Of a stretch of DNA of 27,361 nt, positions 924-19,802 are shown one piece after another (the stretch's first letter is position 1; every line of letters begins with the position of its first letter). Source of the DNA: Anaerolineae bacterium (GTDB lineage Bacteria; Chloroflexota; Anaerolineae; JAADDB01); the NCBI GenBank assembly GCA_015486845.1, contig WFQU01000007.1, forward strand, positions 1-27,361. Direction: 5' to 3'. The notes under the pieces were generated by a model. It saw only the letters and a list, made by a program, of their open reading frames with translations. It had not been told where the DNA came from and did not search any database. A program made the translations under genes and the position numbers.

Positions 924-1051
924 CTACGTGACTCCATACAGTGAAAATAAGCCACAGATTACACAGATTAGATCCACTAAAAATCCATGTAATCTGTGCT
1001 GGCCTTTTTATTTCAGCTTGTCCAGGATAGAAAATAGGTCCGAAATAACAA

Positions 1052-5271: not shown

Positions 5272-6939
5272 ATGTCAGGTAAAATTTCTGGCCCGAGGGT
5301 CGTTCATCCGCCCCGAGGCACAACGCTACACTGCAAAGGATGGCAGCAAGAAGCTGCTTACCGGATGATCCAACACAATTTAGACCCGGAAGTGGCCGGC
5401 GATCCGGAGCATTTGATCGTTTACGGTGGCCGGGGGAAAGCAGCCCGTAATTGGGAAGCTTTCGACGCGATCCTGCGCACGCTGGAGGAACTGGAAAACA
5501 ACGAAACGCTGCTGATCCAGTCCGGCAAGCCGGTGGCGGTTTTCAAGACCCACCCGGATGCCCCGCGCGTTCTCATCGCCAACTCCAACCTGGTGCCGAA
5601 ATGGGCCACCTGGGAGGTTTTTGACGCATTGGAGAAGAAAGGGCTGATCATGTATGGCCAGATGACCGCCGGTTCCTGGATTTACATCGGCACCCAGGGC
5701 ATCCTCCAGGGCACGTACGAGACCTTGGGTGCGGCGGCCAGCAAAGAGGGGTGGCCCAGTCTGAAAGGAAAATTCGTCCTCACTGCCGGCCTCGGCGAAA
5801 TGGGCGGCGCCCAGCCGTTGGCCATCGCCATGAACGACGGTGTGGGCCTCATCGTGGAGGTCGATCCGCGCCGGGCGCAGCGGCGGTTGGAAACGCGTTA
5901 CGTAGACGAAGTGGTGACCGATTTGGACGAAGCACTGCGCAAAGTGTCCGAGCGCCAGGCTAAGGGGGACGGCTGGTCCATCGGTCTCATCGGCAACGCG
6001 GCGGACGTCTACCCGGAATTGGTGCGGCGCGGCGTCACACCGGATATAGTCACCGACCAAACACCAGCCCATGATCCGGAGATGTACGTGCCCAGCGGTA
6101 TCAGCGCCGTCGAAGCGGAGACGTTGCGCCATACCGACCGGGATCATTACATCCAGATGGCGAAAGCCTCCATGGTGAAGCACGTTCAAGCCATTTTGGC
6201 CATGCAGAAACGGGGCGCAGTAGCGTTCGATTACGGCAACAACCTGCGCCAGGAAGCATACGACATGGGCGTGAAGGATGCTTTCGCCTATCCCGGCTTC
6301 GTGCCGGCCTACATCCGGCCCCTTTTCTGCGAGGGGAAAGGGCCGTTCCGCTGGGTGGCACTCTCCGGCGATCCCGAGGACATCTACGTCACCGACCGGA
6401 TCATCATGGACCTCTTCCCGGAGGACGAGCATTTGGTGCGCTGGATCAAAATGGCGGAGAAACGGGTCGCGTGGCAAGGCTTGCCCTCCCGTATCTGCTG
6501 GTTAGGCTACGGCGACCGGGCGAAAGCGGGGTTAGCATTCAACGAAGCAGTGGCCCGCGGCGAAGTCAAAGCGCCCATCGTCATCGGCCGTGATCATTTG
6601 GACGCCGGTTCCGTGGCCTCACCCAACCGGGAAACAGAAGCAATGCAGGACGGCTCCGACGCCATCGCCGATTGGCCAGTGCTGAATGCGCTGCTCAACG
6701 CCGTGGGCGGCGCGACTTGGATCAGCTTCCACCACGGCGGCGGCGTAGGCATGGGCTACAGCTTGCACGCCGGCATGGTGATCCTCGCCGACGGCACGCC
6801 GGAAGCCGCCAAGCGACTGCAACGGGTACTGACCACGGACCCGGGGCTGGGCGTCGTGCGCCACGCCGATGCGGGTTATCCAGCCGCGATCCAATTCGCT
6901 CGGGAACACGGCATCAAAATTCCGATGCTGGGCCGCTAA
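5272..6939 (+). CDS. hutU: Urocanate hydratase (urocanase)
   Basis: About 555 aa with strong urocanase similarity throughout (NAD-binding [12 protein letters not shown], ...[20 protein letters not shown]..., ...[14 protein letters not shown]...). ATG 5272 follows AAAGGAGA with 6-nt spacing. The track's TTG at 5266 is two codons upstream. Confidence 0.9.
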
Positions 6940-14903: not shown

Positions 14904-15551
14904 ATGCCAGAAAATTCTCCTTCTGATTCGCCTGCCAGCGGGGAAAAGGCGAAGTTTCTCTGGCTTGCTATCGCTTTCATCATCGGCATGCTGCTGGGTG
15001 CCGGTGTGATGCACTTGTACCAACCACCCGCCGATACACCGCCACTAATCATTGCGACGGCCGCGCCGACCGTGACGCCGCGCCCTTCCGCTACGCCCGG
15101 CCCCATGCATGTTTATGCCAGTGGTGCCGTGCGCAATCCGGCGGTCTACCGCCTGCCGCCGGGGAGCCGTGCCGATGCTCTATTGAAAGCAGCCGGCGGT
15201 CCTACCAACAACGCGGACTTGCGCCATTTGAACTTGGCCGCCCCATTGCACGACGGACAGCAACTATACGTGCCCAGCGTGGACGATGTTTGCCCGCCCA
15301 CTATTACCCTGGAAGCAGAAACCGGCAACGTAACCATTACGGAGATGACGCCAGGCACCATTTCCGGCGGCAAAGTCGATATTAATCACGCCAGCGCCGC
15401 GGAGTTAGCAAAGCTGCCCGGCGTGGGGCCGGCCATGGCGCAACGCATCATCGCCGCCCGGCCGTACAGCAAAATCGAGGATATCAAGCGGGTGCGGGGC
15501 ATCGGCGATAAAACCTTCGCGAAGCTAAAACCGTACATCGTGACGAAATAA
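14904..15551 (+). CDS. comEA: Competence protein ComEA (SLBB domain plus tandem helix-hairpin-helix DNA-binding domain)
   Basis: N-terminal TM helix and a Pro/Thr/Ala linker. SLBB-like segment (VYASGAVRNPAVYRLPPGSRADALLKAAGG...LYVP). C-terminal HhH motifs (INHASAAELAKLPGVGPAMAQRIIAARPYSKIEDIKRVRGIGDKTFAKLKP). AAGGTGAA ribosome-binding site. Confidence 0.8.
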   Translation: MPENSPSDSPASGEKAKFLWLAIAFIIGMLLGAGVMHLYQPPADTPPLIIATAAPTVTPRPSATPGPMHVYASGAVRNPAVYRLPPGSRADALLKAAGGPTNNADLRHLNLAAPLHDGQQLYVPSVDDVCPPTITLEAETGNVTITEMTPGTISGGKVDINHASAAELAKLPGVGPAMAQRIIAARPYSKIEDIKRVRGIGDKTFAKLKPYIVTK

Positions 15552-15578: not shown

Positions 15579-15620
15579 AGAAGTTCAACTTCTTCGAGAA
15601 GTTGAACTTCTCGTCCTTTT
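15579..15620. terminator. Perfect 14-bp-stem palindrome plus T-tract: intrinsic terminator for comEA and probable end of the convergent Cas4-like operon
   Basis: AGAAGTTCAACTTC (15579-15592), loop TTCGA, then GAAGTTGAACTTCT (15598-15611), followed by cgtcctttt. It starts 28 nt after the comEA stop. The same arms recur at 17521-17553. Confidence 0.7.
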
Positions 15621-15675
15621 GCGTCGGCGTGACTTTAGTCACCCCAAACTACGCGCCGGCGGAGAACGCTGGGGT

Positions 15676-16218
15676 TCACGCCAGCGATTGACCGCAGACA
15701 TGCCGCAACCCGCATTGCCGGCAGCGACGGGGATTGTTGTGGCTGCGGGGGACATCGTCCCGACCAGCCGCGGCGCGCATGGCGTCCATGGTCGCCAGTA
15801 GTTGCGATCTGGCCGCCTCGTCGAATAGCACACGCACATCGCCGCCGGGCTCGCCGACATAATGAATAATGCCATACGGCGGTGTTTGCCCCATCCTTTC
15901 TTCCACTAACAAGCAATAAGCTAACAATTGTAAGCGATGGCTCGCATACGGTCGTCCATTCGCCGGCAAATGACTTGTTTTCACTTCCACCGGAATGAAC
16001 ATGTTGTCATGGTGAATCAGGTAATCCGGCTTGCCGGAGAGCCGGTAGCGCCGGCTACGCAACGGGTGATGCACTTTTTGCCAGGATGCAGTGTCCGCAT
16101 AAACGACCTCTCCGGATGGCAAACCACTCGCACCCCGAATCCGTTTGGCCTGCCGTGACAGGAATCCGGCCAGCAAGAGCGACAGGATCACGCCGGTAAT
16201 CAGCCAAACGGCGTTCAC
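15676..16218 (-). CDS. Cas4/DUF83-like PD-(D/E)XK nuclease, C-terminal part: N-terminal TM anchor, then motifs II and III, QxxxY and a C-x2-C-x5-C iron-sulfur triad
   Basis: TM helix MNAVWLITGVILSLLLAGFL followed by basic residues (positive-inside). GKPDYLIHHDNMFIPVEVKTS gives the D...E-V-K catalytic motifs. QLLAYC matches QhxxY. The C-terminus CRQCGLRHVC has the same spacing as the Cas4 cluster cysteines. GTG start at 16216-16218 follows GGGGAGGCGTACT and overlaps the stop of the upstream ORF (GTGA). Confidence 0.65.
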   Translation of the reverse strand: MNAVWLITGVILSLLLAGFLSRQAKRIRGASGLPSGEVVYADTASWQKVHHPLRSRRYRLSGKPDYLIHHDNMFIPVEVKTSHLPANGRPYASHRLQLLAYCLLVEERMGQTPPYGIIHYVGEPGGDVRVLFDEAARSQLLATMDAMRAAAGRDDVPRSHNNPRRCRQCGLRHVCGQSLA

Positions 16219-16475
16219 AGTACGCCTCCCCGGGCCATGGACCAGACCAGTATCAACAAGAGCAACAAAGCAATGAACAACACTACCCTCGCTGCCTGTT
16301 GATAGCGCTCCCCCCGGCGCACCGAATTTGCGTGCTGTTCATGTTCCTTGATACCGCGCTGAAAAGCAGCCTCGTTAGCCGGCGTTTCGCCACGCACATA
16401 GCGCAGCCACCAAGCGCGATGACAGTAAGCCCAATTGCCGATCTCGCTGGCCGAAAGCCAACCATCTTTGTTCAT
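16215..16475 (-). CDS. Cas4/DUF83-like nuclease, N-terminal part: first cluster Cys plus motif I, then a C-terminal TM anchor
   Basis: LSASEIGNWAYCHRAWWL matches the Cas4 N-terminal SxS-h-x3-YxYCxRxxWL signature. GIKEHEQH resembles the G-x-hHE motif I. C-terminal TM helix VVLFIALLLLLILVW. ATG 16473-16475 follows GGGAGG with a 9-nt spacer. The track start (TTG 16511) is 12 codons upstream without a ribosome-binding site. Confidence 0.55.
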   Translation of the reverse strand: MNKDGWLSASEIGNWAYCHRAWWLRYVRGETPANEAAFQRGIKEHEQHANSVRRGERYQQAARVVLFIALLLLLILVWSMARGGVL

Positions 16476-16643
16476 GAATAAGTGCCTCCCAAGCCAAACA
16501 AGCTGGAACAAAAATAAACACTGATTTCACGTAGATAAATCAGAAAGGATCAGCGAACATCAACGCTATCTGCGTCATCCGCGCCCAAAGTTTAGCCTGG
16601 GCAAGCCAGAACTCATAAGCTGCGCGCAGCAAGAGTAGCTCCA

Positions 16644-17495
16644 TCAGGGACAGCGGCCGATCCACCAATCCTGGCAGGCGCGCGGGTCCATGGCGCTGCC
16701 GGTATCGCGGATGACGACCCTGATGGCCTGTCCGCGCGCCCGGCCCACGGGATCGCCCCCCTTGAGCGCCGGCAATTCGCTTCGCCCCGCCTCGTCCAGT
16801 TGGCGATAAAGCGACAGCAAAGTTGGCGCCACACAAAGCCCGTCCACGTACACCGTGTAGCCTTCCAGGTTGTCGTGCCGAGTATAATTGAGCGTAACCT
16901 GCTCCTCATCGGCGTAAACTACCAGTGCGTCGTAACCGTATTGAATGTCATAGCCGCCATCCGGCGCCCGAACGACCTCGCCGGGGGTGACCTCCAGATC
17001 GGCCATAGTCACCGGGAAGGTCGTGATGGGTGCGCCGTCCGAGTGATGCAACCTGTAGACCTGGACGAAAGTTGGCGTGCGTTCGTCGCCAAAAAGCGTG
17101 TAAAGCTGAGGCGGTGGCGTGGGGTCAGAAGCGCCGTTATACCGAACCAGTTCTTTGGGCGCATCGGCAACGTCGTAGCCCAACAACGCCAAGTTGTAGC
17201 CAGGATCCGTAGCCGCATCCGCCGGCGGCGGTATCCAGGGGTTGACGAACACGGGCAGGCTGCGATACTCGACGCCGGGGATGGCGGCGCACCCTGACGT
17301 AGCACGAATCACAAATGGCAAAAAAGTTTGTCGCTCGCTCGTGTGAGTGTGCGGTATAGCGGCGGCTTTAGAGACAGCTACTTTCTCTGCCTGGCAACCG
17401 CTTAAAAGAAAAGTCACCGCCACAGCCATCATTACGCCTATGGCCGCCACCCGTTGTAGCCATGGGCGGCGTTTGTTCGGTATTAGTCTGAGCAC
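16644..17495 (-). CDS. Putative lipoprotein (283 aa) of unknown function
   Basis: GTG 17493-17495 follows GGAGGAA with 5-nt spacing. The N-terminus (M)LRLIPNKRRPWLQRVAAIGVMMAVAVTFLLSGC reads as a signal peptide with an LSGC lipobox. The mature part is Pro/Tyr/Asp-rich with paired Cys near the C-terminus. I recognise no family. The track's first 24 residues are the translated palindrome. Confidence 0.5.
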   Translation of the reverse strand: MLRLIPNKRRPWLQRVAAIGVMMAVAVTFLLSGCQAEKVAVSKAAAIPHTHTSERQTFLPFVIRATSGCAAIPGVEYRSLPVFVNPWIPPPADAATDPGYNLALLGYDVADAPKELVRYNGASDPTPPPQLYTLFGDERTPTFVQVYRLHHSDGAPITTFPVTMADLEVTPGEVVRAPDGGYDIQYGYDALVVYADEEQVTLNYTRHDNLEGYTVYVDGLCVAPTLLSLYRQLDEAGRSELPALKGGDPVGRARGQAIRVVIRDTGSAMDPRACQDWWIGRCP

Positions 17496-17520
17496 ATGGG
17501 TTCCTCCGCCTGGAACAATT

Positions 17521-17553
17521 AGAAGTTCAACTTGTCGGACAAGTTGAACTTCT
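17521..17553. terminator. Second copy of the 14-bp-stem palindrome, immediately downstream of tyrS
   Basis: AGAAGTTCAACTTG, loop TCGGA, then CAAGTTGAACTTCT. Thirteen of 14 arm positions match the 15579-15611 palindrome. It lies 19 nt past the tyrS stop and about 25 nt before the lipoprotein GTG. Confidence 0.6.
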
Positions 17554-17572
17554 AAAGATGACGTCAAGGGAC

Positions 17573-18820
17573 TTAGGCCGGCAGTAGCCGCAAGAACTTG
17601 CGTTTGCCGACTTTGAGCACGGCCGGCGTTTCCGCAGGGGCAATTTCCCGGCCTATCTCTCGAACAGGCTGATCGTTCAGCGACACGCCGCCTTGTTTGA
17701 CGAGCCGCCGGGCTTCGCTTTTGCTTTTAGCGAAGCCGGCCGCCACGATGAGATCGACCACCGGCATGGCCTCGGCCAAGACTCGCTCCGGCATCTCGGT
17801 GGGCAGCTGTCGTTGCTGGAAAACCCGCTTGAATTGCGCTTCGGCTTCTCGTGCGGCCTCATCGCCGTGGAAAATCGCCACGATCTCCCGCGCCAGTTCC
17901 ATCTTGATATCCCGGGGGTGGCGGCTGCCCGCGGCCAGCGCCTGCTCGATGGCGGCAATCTGATCCGGCAAATAGCGGGTGACCAGCTTGAAATAAAGCG
18001 GCATGACGTCATCCGGCAGGCTCATTACTTTGCCGTACATGTCGGCCGGCGCCAGATTGATGGCAATGTGGTTGCCCAGGCTCTTGGACATCTTGATCTC
18101 GCCATCCGTTCCCGGCAAAAGCGGCACAATCACCGCCACTTGCGGCTTCTGCCCCAACGCTTGTTGCAGCTTGCGGCCGGCGGTCATAATGTTAAAAATC
18201 TGGTCCGTGCCGCCCACCTGGACATCTGTTTCCAGCGCCACCGCGTCGTAGCCCTGCATCAGCGCGTAGAAAAATTCGTGCAACCAGATGGGATCGCCTT
18301 TGCTGTAGCGTTTAGCAAACGTATCCCGGGCCAGGAATTGCTGAACAGTAAAATTAGCAGCCAATTTGATAAGCTCACCGAAAGTCAACGGCGCCAGCCA
18401 GGTGTGATTATAACGGATTTCTGTTTTCTCCGGATCGAGAATCTTGAAAGCTTGCTCCGTGTAGGTCTTGGCGTTGGCCATCACTTCTTCCAAGGTCAGT
18501 TGCGGCCTCGTTTTGTCTTTGTCGCTGGGATCGCCAATGGTGCTGGTAAACGAGCCGATGAGGAACGTGCAGGTGTGGCCCAGTTCCTGGAATTGGCGTA
18601 ATTTGCGCATGGGCACCGTGTGTCCCAAGTGCAAATCGGTGGTGCGCGGGTCGACACCCAAATACACGCGCAGCGGCTTGCCCGTCTCGGCCGACTCGAT
18701 CAGCCGTGCTCGCAGCTCTTTTTCCATGTTGCGTTTTGTTTCGGCGTCGCCGTAATCGCATCCCTGCATCAGGTAAGCAACCTGTTCGTCAATGTTCATT
18801 TGTTTGATGTCTGCAGCCAT
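17573..18820 (-). CDS. tyrS: Tyrosine--tRNA ligase
   Basis: Class I HIGH-like motif LHLGHTVPM, KMSKS motif (KMSKSLGN), and a C-terminal S4-like RNA-binding domain (...RRLVKQGGVSLNDQPV...). ATG 18818-18820 with AAAGGAGAGAACG ribosome-binding site. Confidence 0.9.
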   Translation of the reverse strand: MAADIKQMNIDEQVAYLMQGCDYGDAETKRNMEKELRARLIESAETGKPLRVYLGVDPRTTDLHLGHTVPMRKLRQFQELGHTCTFLIGSFTSTIGDPSDKDKTRPQLTLEEVMANAKTYTEQAFKILDPEKTEIRYNHTWLAPLTFGELIKLAANFTVQQFLARDTFAKRYSKGDPIWLHEFFYALMQGYDAVALETDVQVGGTDQIFNIMTAGRKLQQALGQKPQVAVIVPLLPGTDGEIKMSKSLGNHIAINLAPADMYGKVMSLPDDVMPLYFKLVTRYLPDQIAAIEQALAAGSRHPRDIKMELAREIVAIFHGDEAAREAEAQFKRVFQQRQLPTEMPERVLAEAMPVVDLIVAAGFAKSKSEARRLVKQGGVSLNDQPVREIGREIAPAETPAVLKVGKRKFLRLLPA

Positions 18821-19211: not shown

Positions 19212-19802
19212 TTATTCCGCGGGAGTGACGTTGCCGCCCACAAGATTGACCAGCGCCTGCCGGATCTCGTCCACCTGTTCGTTCTCGGCCCACTGCCGCA
19301 GCACCGGCACCAAATTGTCATTTCCCTGTTCCCGCAGATTATCAATGACCATCGTCTTGATTTGGGAATGAATCCGTTGCAGCCTCGTCCAGGCCTCTTC
19401 CGGCACACCGTGTTCCGCCCAGTACTGCAGCCAATCCTGCACCCGCTGCGCCCAAATTTGCTTAATACGTTCCCATCCTTTGGCGTCAAAATAAGCCAGC
19501 AGCTTATCTTTTGACCCGTAAGCTAACTGCAGCCAGCCTTCTTGGATACAATAATCAACAATGCGCACAATCATATCATCCTGCAGGTGGCGGAGCGCCG
19601 CGTAGCTTTCCAAGCGATACCACTGGTTGAATAGCGTCCGGCCCCGGCGGGAACCTTTAAGGATGAAAACAATGTCTTTGCGCTCTAATTTTCCCGGCAG
19701 TGCGTCCACCGTCATCAAAACGGCGTCGATCTCTGTCTGGGACGGCGGTTCATCTATCGACCATAAGCGAACAGGGATATCTTGTTGTGCTTCACCCGGC
19801 AT
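19212..19802 (-). CDS. Standalone RQC-like winged-helix domain protein (hypothetical)
   Basis: ATG 19800-19802 with GGAGGGG ribosome-binding site. Residues about 40-100 (DIVFILKGSRRGRTLFNQWYRLESYAALRHLQDDMIVRIVDYCIQEGWL) follow the pattern of the RecQ C-terminal winged helix (vvevLrGs...ir...h.kL..yG...d.s...W..vIrqLi..GlL). The rest is a Trp-rich helical region with no recognised family. Confidence 0.4.
   Translation of the reverse strand: MPGEAQQDIPVRLWSIDEPPSQTEIDAVLMTVDALPGKLERKDIVFILKGSRRGRTLFNQWYRLESYAALRHLQDDMIVRIVDYCIQEGWLQLAYGSKDKLLAYFDAKGWERIKQIWAQRVQDWLQYWAEHGVPEEAWTRLQRIHSQIKTMVIDNLREQGNDNLVPVLRQWAENEQVDEIRQALVNLVGGNVTPAE

What the first reader, a model, noticed from the sequence alone, without database searches (positions are those of the whole stretch)
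15579..17553. A lipoprotein plus split-nuclease cassette bracketed by two near-identical 14-bp-stem palindromes
AGAAGTTCAACTTC-N5-GAAGTTGAACTTCT (15579-15611) and AGAAGTTCAACTTG-N5-CAAGTTGAACTTCT (17521-17553) share 13 of 14 arm positions. They lie exactly at the two borders of the minus-strand lipoprotein, Cas4-N and Cas4-C unit.

Each also serves as the terminator of a flanking housekeeping gene: comEA on one side and tyrS on the other.

Two such similar long palindromes within 2 kb suggest one of three things. They could be a genome-wide REP-like terminator family. They could be the boundaries of an inserted cassette. Or they could be a shared regulatory or structural RNA element.
Basis: seen in the sequence. 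Interest (0 to 1): 0.6.

Follow-up and report, generated by a model that had tools for sequence, protein, structure and literature searches.

The report
Two REP elements, not cassette borders
The two near-identical palindromes are copies of a short repeated hairpin element (a REP) that a dedicated transposase-like gene spreads between genes in one group of Chloroflexota bacteria, so their position either side of three genes is incidental.

Summary
Perfect palindromes lie at 15579-15611 and 17519-17555, and none is expected by chance. The "cassette" reading fails.

- **Family.** The same core (GAAGTTCAACTT-N7/8-AAGTTGAACTTC) occurs in at least 104 genome blocks from about 34 Chloroflexota (Anaerolineae-type) species. 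The copies are intergenic and some form tandem arrays.
- **Transposase link.** In five other genomes a roughly 187-aa RAYT-type tyrosine transposase gene (HUH and Tyr motifs) is flanked on both sides by this palindrome. A sixth, more distant RAYT carries a variant with compensatory changes. This is the classic REPtron arrangement.
- **Synteny.** A close relative (TyrS 93% identical) keeps tyrS next to the lipoprotein gene with a 38-nt spacer and no palindrome. Its collinearity with the window ends at the lipoprotein stop codon. The left palindrome is therefore a roughly 37-40-nt insertion inside a conserved block, and the three genes are not one unit.
- **Function.** A terminator role is unproven. 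Only the comEA-side copy has a weak T-run.

Verdict: an ordinary REP-RAYT system. It is a new, GTAG-less member from a phylum where such systems are poorly described. I found no description of this family in the papers I could search.

The parts
15579..15611 (.). REP copy 1. Perfect palindrome with 15-nt arms and a 3-nt centre, between the convergent 3' ends of comEA and the Cas4-like C-part gene.
   Evidence: Exact match to the family core found in about 34 Chloroflexota genomes.
17519..17555 (.). REP copy 2. Perfect palindrome with 18-nt arms and a 1-nt centre, 17 nt after the tyrS stop and 11 nt before the lipoprotein Shine-Dalgarno sequence. Absent from the same spacer in a close relative.
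   Evidence: Empty site in L188/L189, where TyrS is 93% identical and the spacer is 38 nt.
14904..15551 (+). comEA-like gene (SLBB plus helix-hairpin-helix domains). Neighbour of REP copy 1, not part of the element.
   Evidence: Pfam HHH_3 at 2e-19, SLBB at 2e-10.
15676..16218 (-). Cas4-like / PD-(D/E)XK nuclease C part with an N-terminal hydrophobic, probably membrane-spanning, segment. Neighbour of REP copy 1.
   Evidence: Cas_Cas4 at 2e-11; 2648 homologues, and the 120 best listed are nearly all 169-193 aa.
16215..16475 (-). Small partner ORF (86 aa as called). It carries the Cas4 N-terminal Cys motif and a C-terminal hydrophobic segment, and overlaps the C-part start by 4 nt.
   Evidence: An artificial fusion without the hydrophobic segments covers the Cas_Cas4 model at positions 3-158 of 160.
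16644..17495 (-). Lipoprotein gene (GTG start, LSGC lipobox, no Pfam match). Conserved immediately downstream of tyrS in relatives.
   Evidence: Collinearity with L188 ends at its stop codon.
17573..18820 (-). tyrS (tyrosyl-tRNA synthetase). Neighbour of REP copy 2.
   Evidence: tRNA-synt_1b at 1e-71.

Best explanation
Both palindromes are REP elements (repetitive extragenic palindromes). They belong to a family specific to a clade of Chloroflexota that includes Ardenticatenales, Promineifilaceae, Leptofilum, Caldilineae and other Anaerolineae-type MAGs.

The element is a roughly 33-37-nt perfect hairpin: A-GAAGTTCAACTT-CT, a 3-4-nt loop, then AG-AAGTTGAACTTC-T.

**Shown**
- It is dispersed in intergenic DNA of many species.
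- Its positions differ between species.
- It can be present or absent at the same site in close relatives.
- The gene for a RAYT-type Y1 (HUH/Tyr) transposase is bracketed by copies of it in several genomes.
- Variants carry compensatory stem changes.

**Inferred from the E. coli TnpA-REP and IS200/IS608 paradigm**
- The RAYT recognises the hairpin in single-stranded DNA, cleaves and rejoins it, and so seeds new copies into intergenic spacers.
- In this window one copy landed in the tyrS-lipoprotein spacer and another between the convergent comEA and Cas4-like genes.
- Their similarity reflects common family membership, not a functional pairing.

**Inferred, not shown**
- When transcribed, each copy forms a stable 15-18-bp hairpin. 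It may act as a 3'-end barrier or weak attenuator, as REPs do in E. coli. This would be a by-product, not the reason the copies are there.
For: **Family**
- They hold 124 exact-core copies from about 34 species-level genomes.
- 192 copies are found when relaxed matches are counted.
- Density is 1.7 per 10 kb in those loci, against 0.01 per 10 kb in 745 kb of other metagenome contigs that carry a TyrS 58-68% identical, used as a control.

**Location**
- Copies are essentially always intergenic.
- Crude gene calls give 67 co-directional, 12 convergent and 14 divergent spacers.
- Of the 14 apparent intragenic cases, the one checked in detail is a gene-calling artefact.

**Transposase**
- L007: a Y1_Tnp gene flanked by copies. 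Pfam PF01797 at 9e-11. NCBIfam REP_Tyr_transpos is the only hit.
- Homologues of about 187 aa are flanked by exact copies in L199 (Ca. Leptofilum), L200 (Promineofilaceae), L201/L202 and L204/L205.
- The 61%-identical RAYT in L203 is flanked by a compensated variant, GAAGTCCGACTT/AAGTCGGACTTC. A second RAYT in that locus has a different palindrome.
- HUH and YIHxNPV motifs are invariant across 16 homologues.
- The only PDB match is E. coli TnpA-REP, 4ER8, at E = 4e-5.

**Hairpin**
- 10 of 18 pairs show changes on both sides.
- Stem columns 3-17 are at least 95% paired, apart from one rarely broken pair.
- 0 of 500 shuffles reach the observed values.

**Mobility**
- L188/L189 (TyrS 93% identical) have an empty tyrS-lipoprotein spacer.
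- Syntenic genes in different species carry copies at different places.
Against: - No RAYT gene lies in the window, and the rest of the source genome could not be read. The cognate transposase and the genome-wide copy number in this organism are therefore inferred from relatives.
- The family lacks the GT[AG]G or CGTC tag that defines most described REPs.
- The RAYTs score 73-78 bits against NCBIfam's REP_Tyr_transpos, just under its curated cut-off of 80.
- No empty site was found for copy 1.
- Transposase activity on this hairpin is untested.
- The genome scan used an exact core, so counts and the apparent uniformity of the arms are biased by the search pattern.
- The relaxed copies used for the covariation count were required to have at least 11 of 12 complementary arm positions. 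Only the innermost and outermost pairs are free of that bias.
Confidence: 0.88

Rival explanations
1. The two palindromes are the ends of a mobile or inserted gene cassette (lipoprotein plus the split Cas4-like pair). They would act as terminal inverted repeats of a composite element or as attC-like recombination sites.
For: They bracket exactly these three co-oriented genes, and the arms are 13 of 14 identical. Gene order downstream of the lipoprotein gene differs in the closest relative.
Against: - The lipoprotein gene is adjacent to tyrS in three lineages, and two of them lack any palindrome.
- Collinearity with L188 runs through copy 2 and ends at the lipoprotein stop codon (about 16641), between the lipoprotein and Cas4-like genes. 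It does not end at either palindrome.
- Homologues of the Cas4-like pair occur elsewhere without palindromes.
- In other genomes the same palindrome flanks unrelated single genes.
- There is no integrase or transposase in the interval.
Confidence: 0.02
2. The palindromes are a selected family of factor-independent transcription terminators or mRNA 3'-end stabilisers. They would be kept at gene ends for that function rather than spread as mobile DNA.
For: - The hairpins are stable.
- Copy 1 is picked up by the terminator scan on the + strand, where it is followed by CGTCCTTTTG.
- By my reading of the table, copies typically lie about 30 nt after a stop codon.
- REPs in E. coli are known to stabilise upstream mRNA (established knowledge, reviewed in PMC3733652).
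Against: - The consensus 3' flank is TAAA on both strands, not a U-tract.
- Copy 2 has no T-run and lies 11 nt from the Shine-Dalgarno sequence of a gene that is tightly linked to tyrS in relatives.
- Fourteen copies lie in divergent spacers. Several of these are bounded by ORFs of more than 300 aa on both sides.
- Tandem arrays of 4 to 10 copies flank the RAYT genes.
- Sequence, not merely structure, is conserved across about 34 species. The central C...G order is kept in 122 of 125 paired units.
- Positions are not orthologous between species.
Confidence: 0.07
3. The palindrome is a double-stranded DNA binding site, either an operator for a global regulator or a DNA uptake sequence. The four GAAGTT/AACTTC half-sites would be read by a dimer of dimers.
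For: Each arm is itself a 13-bp palindrome (GAAGTT-S-AACTTC). Copy 2 sits just upstream of a gene start. comEA, a DNA-uptake gene, is adjacent.
Against: - Single 13-mers almost never occur alone, and they are essentially absent from coding DNA.
- A symmetric dimer site would not fix C in the left arm and G in the right.
- Compensatory changes preserve arm-to-arm pairing, not the half-site sequence.
- There are dozens of copies per genome, tandem arrays, and an obligatory association with a RAYT gene.
- No copies were found in viral contigs.
Confidence: 0.03

Closest known systems
REP / REPIN-RAYT systems (E. coli REP/BIME with TnpA-REP, PDB 4ER8; Pseudomonas REPINs)
   Same: - A short (about 31-37 nt) extragenic palindrome in many copies.
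- A RAYT (Y1 HUH transposase with the YIHxNPV motif) bracketed by the repeat, i.e. a REPtron.
- Tandem or clustered arrays like BIMEs.
- The repeat co-varies with RAYT divergence.
- A second RAYT in one genome has its own distinct repeat.
- Presence/absence polymorphism between close relatives.
   Different: - There is no GT[AG]G or CGTC tag. The foot is A|GAAGTT.
- The stem is perfect (15 bp) rather than carrying the usual bulge or mismatches.
- Each arm is itself palindromic.
- The host is Chloroflexota (Anaerolineae) rather than Proteobacteria.
- The RAYTs fall just under NCBIfam's equivalog cut-off.
- The exact 2 x 12-nt core is shared by about 34 species.
Atypical REPs of TnpA-Y1 subclasses 2.6 and 3 (Quentin et al. 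2018, PMC6006769) and 'untagged' stem-loop repeat families (Di Nocera et al. 2013, PMC3733652)
   Same: REP-like hairpins that flank a tnpA-REP gene, lack the GT[AG]G guide, and have further copies elsewhere in the genome.
   Different: Those were described as having weak secondary structure and were found mostly in Bacteroidetes. This family has a very strong, perfect stem. I did not place its RAYT in that subclass scheme.
Conserved-sequence terminator hairpins (paired Neisseria DUS, Haemophilus USS pairs)
   Same: A sequence-conserved inverted repeat found after genes in many copies across a bacterial family.
   Different: Uptake sequences are short single motifs that are frequent alone and inside genes. 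Here the unit is the whole palindrome, single arms are virtually absent, and a transposase gene is associated with it.
Integron attC sites / MITE terminal inverted repeats
   Same: Imperfect or perfect palindromes that can flank genes.
   Different: There is no integrase, no array of co-oriented cassettes and no internal sequence between inverted repeats. The bracketed genes do not move together.

Membership tests
REP-RAYT (REPtron) system | Short (about 20-40 nt) palindromic repeat able to form a stem-loop | tested here: met
   The element spans 31-37 nt with a 15-18-bp perfect stem. In the family alignment, stem columns 3-17 are at least 95% paired apart from one rarely broken pair, and 10 pairs show compensatory changes.
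REP-RAYT (REPtron) system | Many dispersed copies confined to extragenic space | tested here: met
   At least 104 genome blocks with 124 exact copies, up to about 35 in one MAG's sampled blocks. Copies are intergenic. The copy number in the source genome itself could not be counted; the window holds 2 in 27 kb.
REP-RAYT (REPtron) system | A RAYT gene (Y1 transposase) flanked by copies of the same repeat | tested here: met
   Seen in L007, L199, L200, L201/L202 and L204/L205 with exact copies, and in L203 with a compensated variant. Not tested for the source organism, because no RAYT lies in the window.
REP-RAYT (REPtron) system | RAYT catalytic signature (HUH motif, catalytic Tyr, RAYT-type YIxxNPV motif) | tested here: met
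   H58-Y59-H60 and Y118-I119-H120-x-N122-P123-V124 are invariant or nearly so in 16 homologues. Pfam Y1_Tnp scores above its cut-off. The only PDB match is 4ER8, TnpA-REP. NCBIfam REP_Tyr_transpos scores 73-78 bits, below its cut-off of 80.
REP-RAYT (REPtron) system | Conserved 5' GT[AG]G (or CGTC) tetranucleotide at the foot of the hairpin | tested here: not met
   The foot consensus is nnA|GAAGTT...AACTTC|Tnn. The two outer flank columns are variable and unpaired. GTAG occurs only sporadically.
REP-RAYT (REPtron) system | RAYT binds and cleaves the single-stranded repeat; the repeat is mobile | not testable with these tools
   Only indirect evidence is available: an empty site in a relative with 93%-identical TyrS, and non-orthologous positions between species.
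Intrinsic (factor-independent) terminator | G+C-rich stem followed directly by a U-tract on the transcribed strand | tested here: inconclusive
   Copy 1 on the + strand has 5 G-C pairs out of 15 and is followed by CGTCCTTTTG, which the scan flags. Copy 2 has no T-run on either strand. The family 3' flank consensus is TAAA.
Mobile gene cassette (integron attC or composite element) | The bracketed genes move as one unit with their flanking repeats, with a recombinase nearby | tested here: not met
   The lipoprotein gene stays with tyrS without repeats in relatives. The synteny break falls between the lipoprotein and Cas4-like genes. No integrase was found.
Known RNA families (Rfam 15) | Match to a curated covariance model at its gathering score | tested here: not met
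   Only sub-threshold chance hits to a microRNA model: 24 and 22 bits against a gathering score of 82.

The most novel reading that the evidence does not exclude
This is an undescribed REP-RAYT lineage of Anaerolineae-type Chloroflexota with three unusual features.
- The repeat has no GTAG tag.
- It forms a perfect 15-bp hairpin built from two copies of a self-palindromic 13-mer.
- Its 2 x 12-nt core is conserved to the base across dozens of species, while its RAYT diverges to about 70% identity. Compensatory stem changes appear only at about 60% identity.

It would be a clean, long-lived, vertically inherited REP-RAYT partnership outside Proteobacteria, and a different mode of hairpin recognition by a Y1 transposase.
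Probability: 0.5. Interest if true: 0.4.

Novelty: new member of a known kind. Interest (0 to 1): 0.27.

Why it matters
**For this window**
- The result removes a false lead. The palindromes do not mark a mobile cassette or a shared regulatory RNA.
- The lipoprotein gene belongs with tyrS, not with the Cas4-like genes.

**More broadly**
- It identifies a REP family together with its cognate RAYT in Chloroflexota MAGs, where intergenic repeats are essentially uncharacterised.
- The motif is a simple marker for this clade in metagenomes.
- It is likely to break short-read assemblies. Many of the contigs found here end near copies.
- It is a natural test case for REP-RAYT co-evolution and for how a Y1 transposase recognises a hairpin that lacks the canonical GTAG guide.

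Tried and rejected
- **Synteny anchored on tyrS in metagenome contigs.** The 80 loci had TyrS only 58-68% identical, with no conserved neighbours and only one palindrome. They served only as a negative control.
- **Window proteins against the 104 pattern-hit loci.** No hits, so the source genome was not among the rows returned.
- **Clustering ORFs next to palindromes to find an associated gene.** Only large paralogous families came up. The RAYT was found instead by inspecting ORFs lying between two copies.
- **Rfam.** Nothing.
- **Viral contigs.** No copies.
- **Single-sequence search of the RAYT against PDB.** Nothing. A 16-sequence profile was needed to reach 4ER8.
- **Contexts of Cas4-like homologues.** No orthologous comEA/Cas4 spacer turned up, so I could not test whether copy 1 is an insertion.
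- **Literature searches.** I searched for the sequence itself and for REP, RAYT or REPIN together with Chloroflexi, Anaerolineae or Ardenticatena. No description of this family was found.
- **Readings considered and rejected.** LexA, CIRCE or HSE-like operators, parS, a CRISPR repeat (the tandem arrays have identical spacers) and attC.
Full report
**1. The observation**

The window holds two perfect palindromes.
- Copy 1: 15579-15611, 15-nt arms and a 3-nt centre.

Evidence that they are real and not chance:
- They share the core AGAAGTTCAACTT...AAGTTGAACTTCT.
- No other copy exists in the 27 kb, even at 2-3 mismatches.
- Shuffled sequence gives none.
- Each folds as a stable hairpin at -22 to -27 kcal/mol (z about -4 to -5).
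- Three independent assemblies of the same organism carry the tyrS-side copy, and the two that extend far enough also carry the comEA-side copy.

**2. Gene context**

On the minus strand the order is as follows:
- tyrS (17573-18820)
- copy 2
- a lipoprotein gene (16644-17495; GTG start, GGAGG Shine-Dalgarno sequence, LSGC lipobox, no Pfam match)
- a 132-nt gap
- a small ORF (16215-16475)
- a Cas4-like / PD-(D/E)XK ORF (15676-16218)
- copy 1
- the 3' end of the convergent comEA gene (14904-15551)

Copy 2 lies 17 nt after the tyrS stop and 11 nt before the lipoprotein Shine-Dalgarno sequence.

**3. The palindrome is a lineage-wide dispersed repeat**

All came from Chloroflexota MAGs labelled Ardenticatenaceae/-ales, Promineifilaceae, Leptofilum, Caldilineae or Anaerolineae. 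They represent about 34 different genomes.

Features of the copies:
- The blocks hold 124 exact-core copies. The centre is nearly always 7 or 8 nt, and the flanks are A...T.
- With relaxed matching I count 192 copies.
- Density is 1.7 per 10 kb in these loci.
- Density is 0.01 per 10 kb in 745 kb of other metagenome contigs recovered through a TyrS 58-68% identical. The motif is therefore clade-specific, not a general feature of related bacteria.
- Single arms almost never occur alone.
- The order "C in the left arm, G in the right" holds in 122 of 125 paired units. This points to copying from a common source rather than independent selection for a structure or a dimer-binding site.
- Copies are intergenic: 67 co-directional, 12 convergent and 14 divergent spacers by crude ORF calling.
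- Of the 14 apparent intragenic cases, the one checked in detail is an antisense-ORF artefact. Most others lie near the start of ORFs that my caller over-extends, as it does for copy 2 in the window.
- Some genomes have tandem arrays and mosaic flanks reminiscent of E. coli BIMEs.
- Where loci from different species are syntenic, the copies are not at the same places.
- Rfam has nothing and viral contigs have none.

**4. The associated gene**

I inspected ORFs lying between two copies. In L007 this revealed a frameshifted gene with an HUH motif (MPNHYHLL) and an SRYIHRNPV motif.
- It matches Pfam Y1_Tnp above threshold.
- Its only NCBIfam hit is "REP-associated tyrosine transposase".
- It has about 3200 homologues of roughly 187 aa. 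JGI names several of them "REP element-mobilizing transposase RayT".

I looked up five of these homologues. All are flanked by the palindrome.

| Locus | Source | Identity to L007 RAYT | Flanking copies |
|---|---|---|---|
| L199 | Ca. Leptofilum, 6.36-Mb contig | 79% | Exact copies 20 nt before the start and 4 nt after the stop |
| L200 | Promineofilaceae | 86% | Exact copies on both sides |
| L201/L202 | Anaerolineales | 72% | One copy before, two after |
| L204/L205 | Anaerolineae | 70% | About ten copies before (period 52; compensated variant GACGTT...AACGTC) and about nine exact copies after (period 62) |
| L203 | Caldilineaceae | 61% | Variant with two compensated pairs per arm (GAAGTCCGACTT/AAGTCGGACTTC) |

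A second Y1_Tnp gene 1.7 kb away in L203 is flanked by an unrelated palindrome of its own.

Further support:
- The 16-sequence alignment shows invariant HUH and Tyr motifs.
- Its profile hits a single PDB entry, E. coli TnpA-REP (4ER8).
- On a 93-sequence alignment of the 7-nt-centre class, 10 of 18 pairs show changes on both sides, and no shuffle reaches the observed values.
- The outer and inner pairs, which my selection did not constrain, are paired in 88 of 93 (A-T) and 90 of 93 sequences. The inner pair has 28 compensated C-G to T-A changes.

This is the REPtron arrangement that defines REP-RAYT systems (PMC6006769, PMC5581495, PMC3733652).

**5. The cassette idea fails**

Homologues of the lipoprotein give the context in relatives.
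- In L188/L189 the gene order ABC transporter - FtsX - 196-aa protein - tyrS - lipoprotein is conserved. TyrS is 93% identical and the lipoprotein 73% identical.
- There the tyrS-lipoprotein spacer is 38 nt and has no palindrome, against about 77 nt with it in the window.
- Downstream come DegT and PMT_2 genes instead of the Cas4-like pair and comEA.
- Nucleotide collinearity with the window runs from 23598 to 16641. It passes through copy 2 and stops at the lipoprotein stop codon.
- L190 (lipoprotein 60% identical) also has tyrS next to the lipoprotein gene without a palindrome.
- Homologues of the Cas4-like gene sit in unrelated contexts without palindromes.

So copy 2 is a roughly 37-40-nt insertion, or has been lost from the relatives, inside a conserved gene pair. 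The three "cassette" genes belong to two different synteny blocks. I could not find an orthologous spacer to test copy 1.

**6. How it most likely works**

Shown:
- family membership
- intergenic dispersal
- RAYT association
- hairpin covariation
- a presence/absence polymorphism

Inferred from the E. coli TnpA-REP and IS608 paradigm:
- The RAYT recognises the hairpin in single-stranded DNA.
- It cleaves and rejoins it, generating new copies and arrays.

Inferred, and weaker:
- In transcripts the hairpins may stabilise upstream mRNA or attenuate read-through.
- Only copy 1 on the + strand has anything like a T-run.
- The family's flank consensus (TAAA) and its presence in divergent spacers argue against a dedicated terminator role.

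**7. Comparison with what is known, and novelty**

The system works like, and meets most defining features of, a REP-RAYT system. It fails one commonly cited feature, the GT[AG]G or CGTC tag. Its RAYTs also score just below NCBIfam's equivalog cut-off. REP families without a tag, and atypical ones, have already been described (PMC3733652, PMC6006769).

I found no paper describing this sequence, or REP-RAYT systems in Anaerolineae, in the searchable library. I therefore rate it a new member of a known kind.

As an answer to the finding it is ordinary: two REP elements. The family itself is modestly interesting to specialists in mobile DNA.

Noticed in passing
window 15676-16475 (-): The Cas4-like nuclease is encoded as two overlapping ORFs.
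- The 86-aa N part has the first Cys motif and a C-terminal hydrophobic, probably membrane-spanning, segment.
- The 180-aa C part has an N-terminal hydrophobic segment, the PD-(D/E)XK core and three C-terminal Cys.

An artificial fusion without the hydrophobic segments covers Pfam Cas_Cas4 at positions 3-158 of 160, at 51.6 bits against 44.4 for the C part alone. The C part has 2648 homologues, and the 120 best listed are nearly all 169-193 aa. A similar small upstream partner exists in L195. The split is therefore an old, conserved, probably membrane-anchored architecture with no CRISPR array nearby.
   Followed up: partly
L007 3106-5652; L201 7142-10047; L202 731-5192; L203 6388-9750; L204 6291-9497 and 12654-19681: The RAYT genes flanked by this palindrome sit next to restriction-modification or other defence genes in five of the six genomes examined:
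- HsdR
- RhuM with an SMC-like ATPase
- N6_N4 methylase with ResIII
- an MmeI-type enzyme
- SNF2/PLD with Eco57I/TaqI_C and AbiE

Whether this is more than co-location in variable islands is unknown.
   Followed up: no
L203 12254-12841 and flanks: A second Y1_Tnp gene lies 1.7 kb from the first. It is flanked by a different G+C-rich palindrome (GGCGTGCAACGCACTC / GAGTGCGTTGCAC). This looks like a second REP-RAYT pair in the same genome.
   Followed up: no
L204 9477-9974 and 10581-11108; L201 6727-6895; L104 6124-6247; L087 2596-2725: Head-to-tail arrays of the palindrome with identical linkers. Periods are 52, 62, 46, 46 and 49 nt, with 3 to 10 copies, and the largest arrays directly flank a RAYT gene. 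The array upstream of the L204 RAYT is a compensated variant (GACGTT...AACGTC), while the downstream array has the standard sequence.
   Followed up: partly
L008-L104 loci of MAG BC3.16 (JAWKPA01), and JAADHH01 loci L023, L026, L035, L069, L093, L102: In some genomes the palindrome is embedded in larger repeats.
- In BC3.16, four flank modules (for example CTTGCCCATTTA and TTGCGTAACTTA) combine in different ways around it.
- In JAADHH01, about 45 nt on one side and 17 nt on the other are conserved between copies.
- The asymmetric 8-nt loop (CTCAGAAG or CTTCTGAG) occurs in both orientations relative to the flanks.

   Followed up: partly
window about 16641: Collinearity with the closest relative (L188) ends exactly at the lipoprotein stop codon. 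Downstream the relative has DegT and PMT_2 genes, where the window has the Cas4-like pair and the convergent comEA block. This is a rearrangement breakpoint in the A+T-rich 132-nt spacer at 16512-16643.
   Followed up: partly
window 953-998: Another A+T-rich inverted repeat, CACAGATTACACAGATT / AATCCATGTAATCTGTG: 17-nt arms, 88% complementary, 12 nt apart. It is unrelated in sequence to the REP family.
   Followed up: no
L197 about 6640-6760: A tandem array of a short unit (CCAATCTACCAATYCC-like) lies directly downstream of a Cas4-like homologue.
   Followed up: no
window 19212-19802 (-): A 196-aa ORF with a weak RQC-domain match (E = 3e-4, below the Pfam cut-off) is conserved just upstream of tyrS. 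A 196-aa gene occupies the same position in L188/L189, and L190 has sequence similarity to the same stretch.
   Followed up: no
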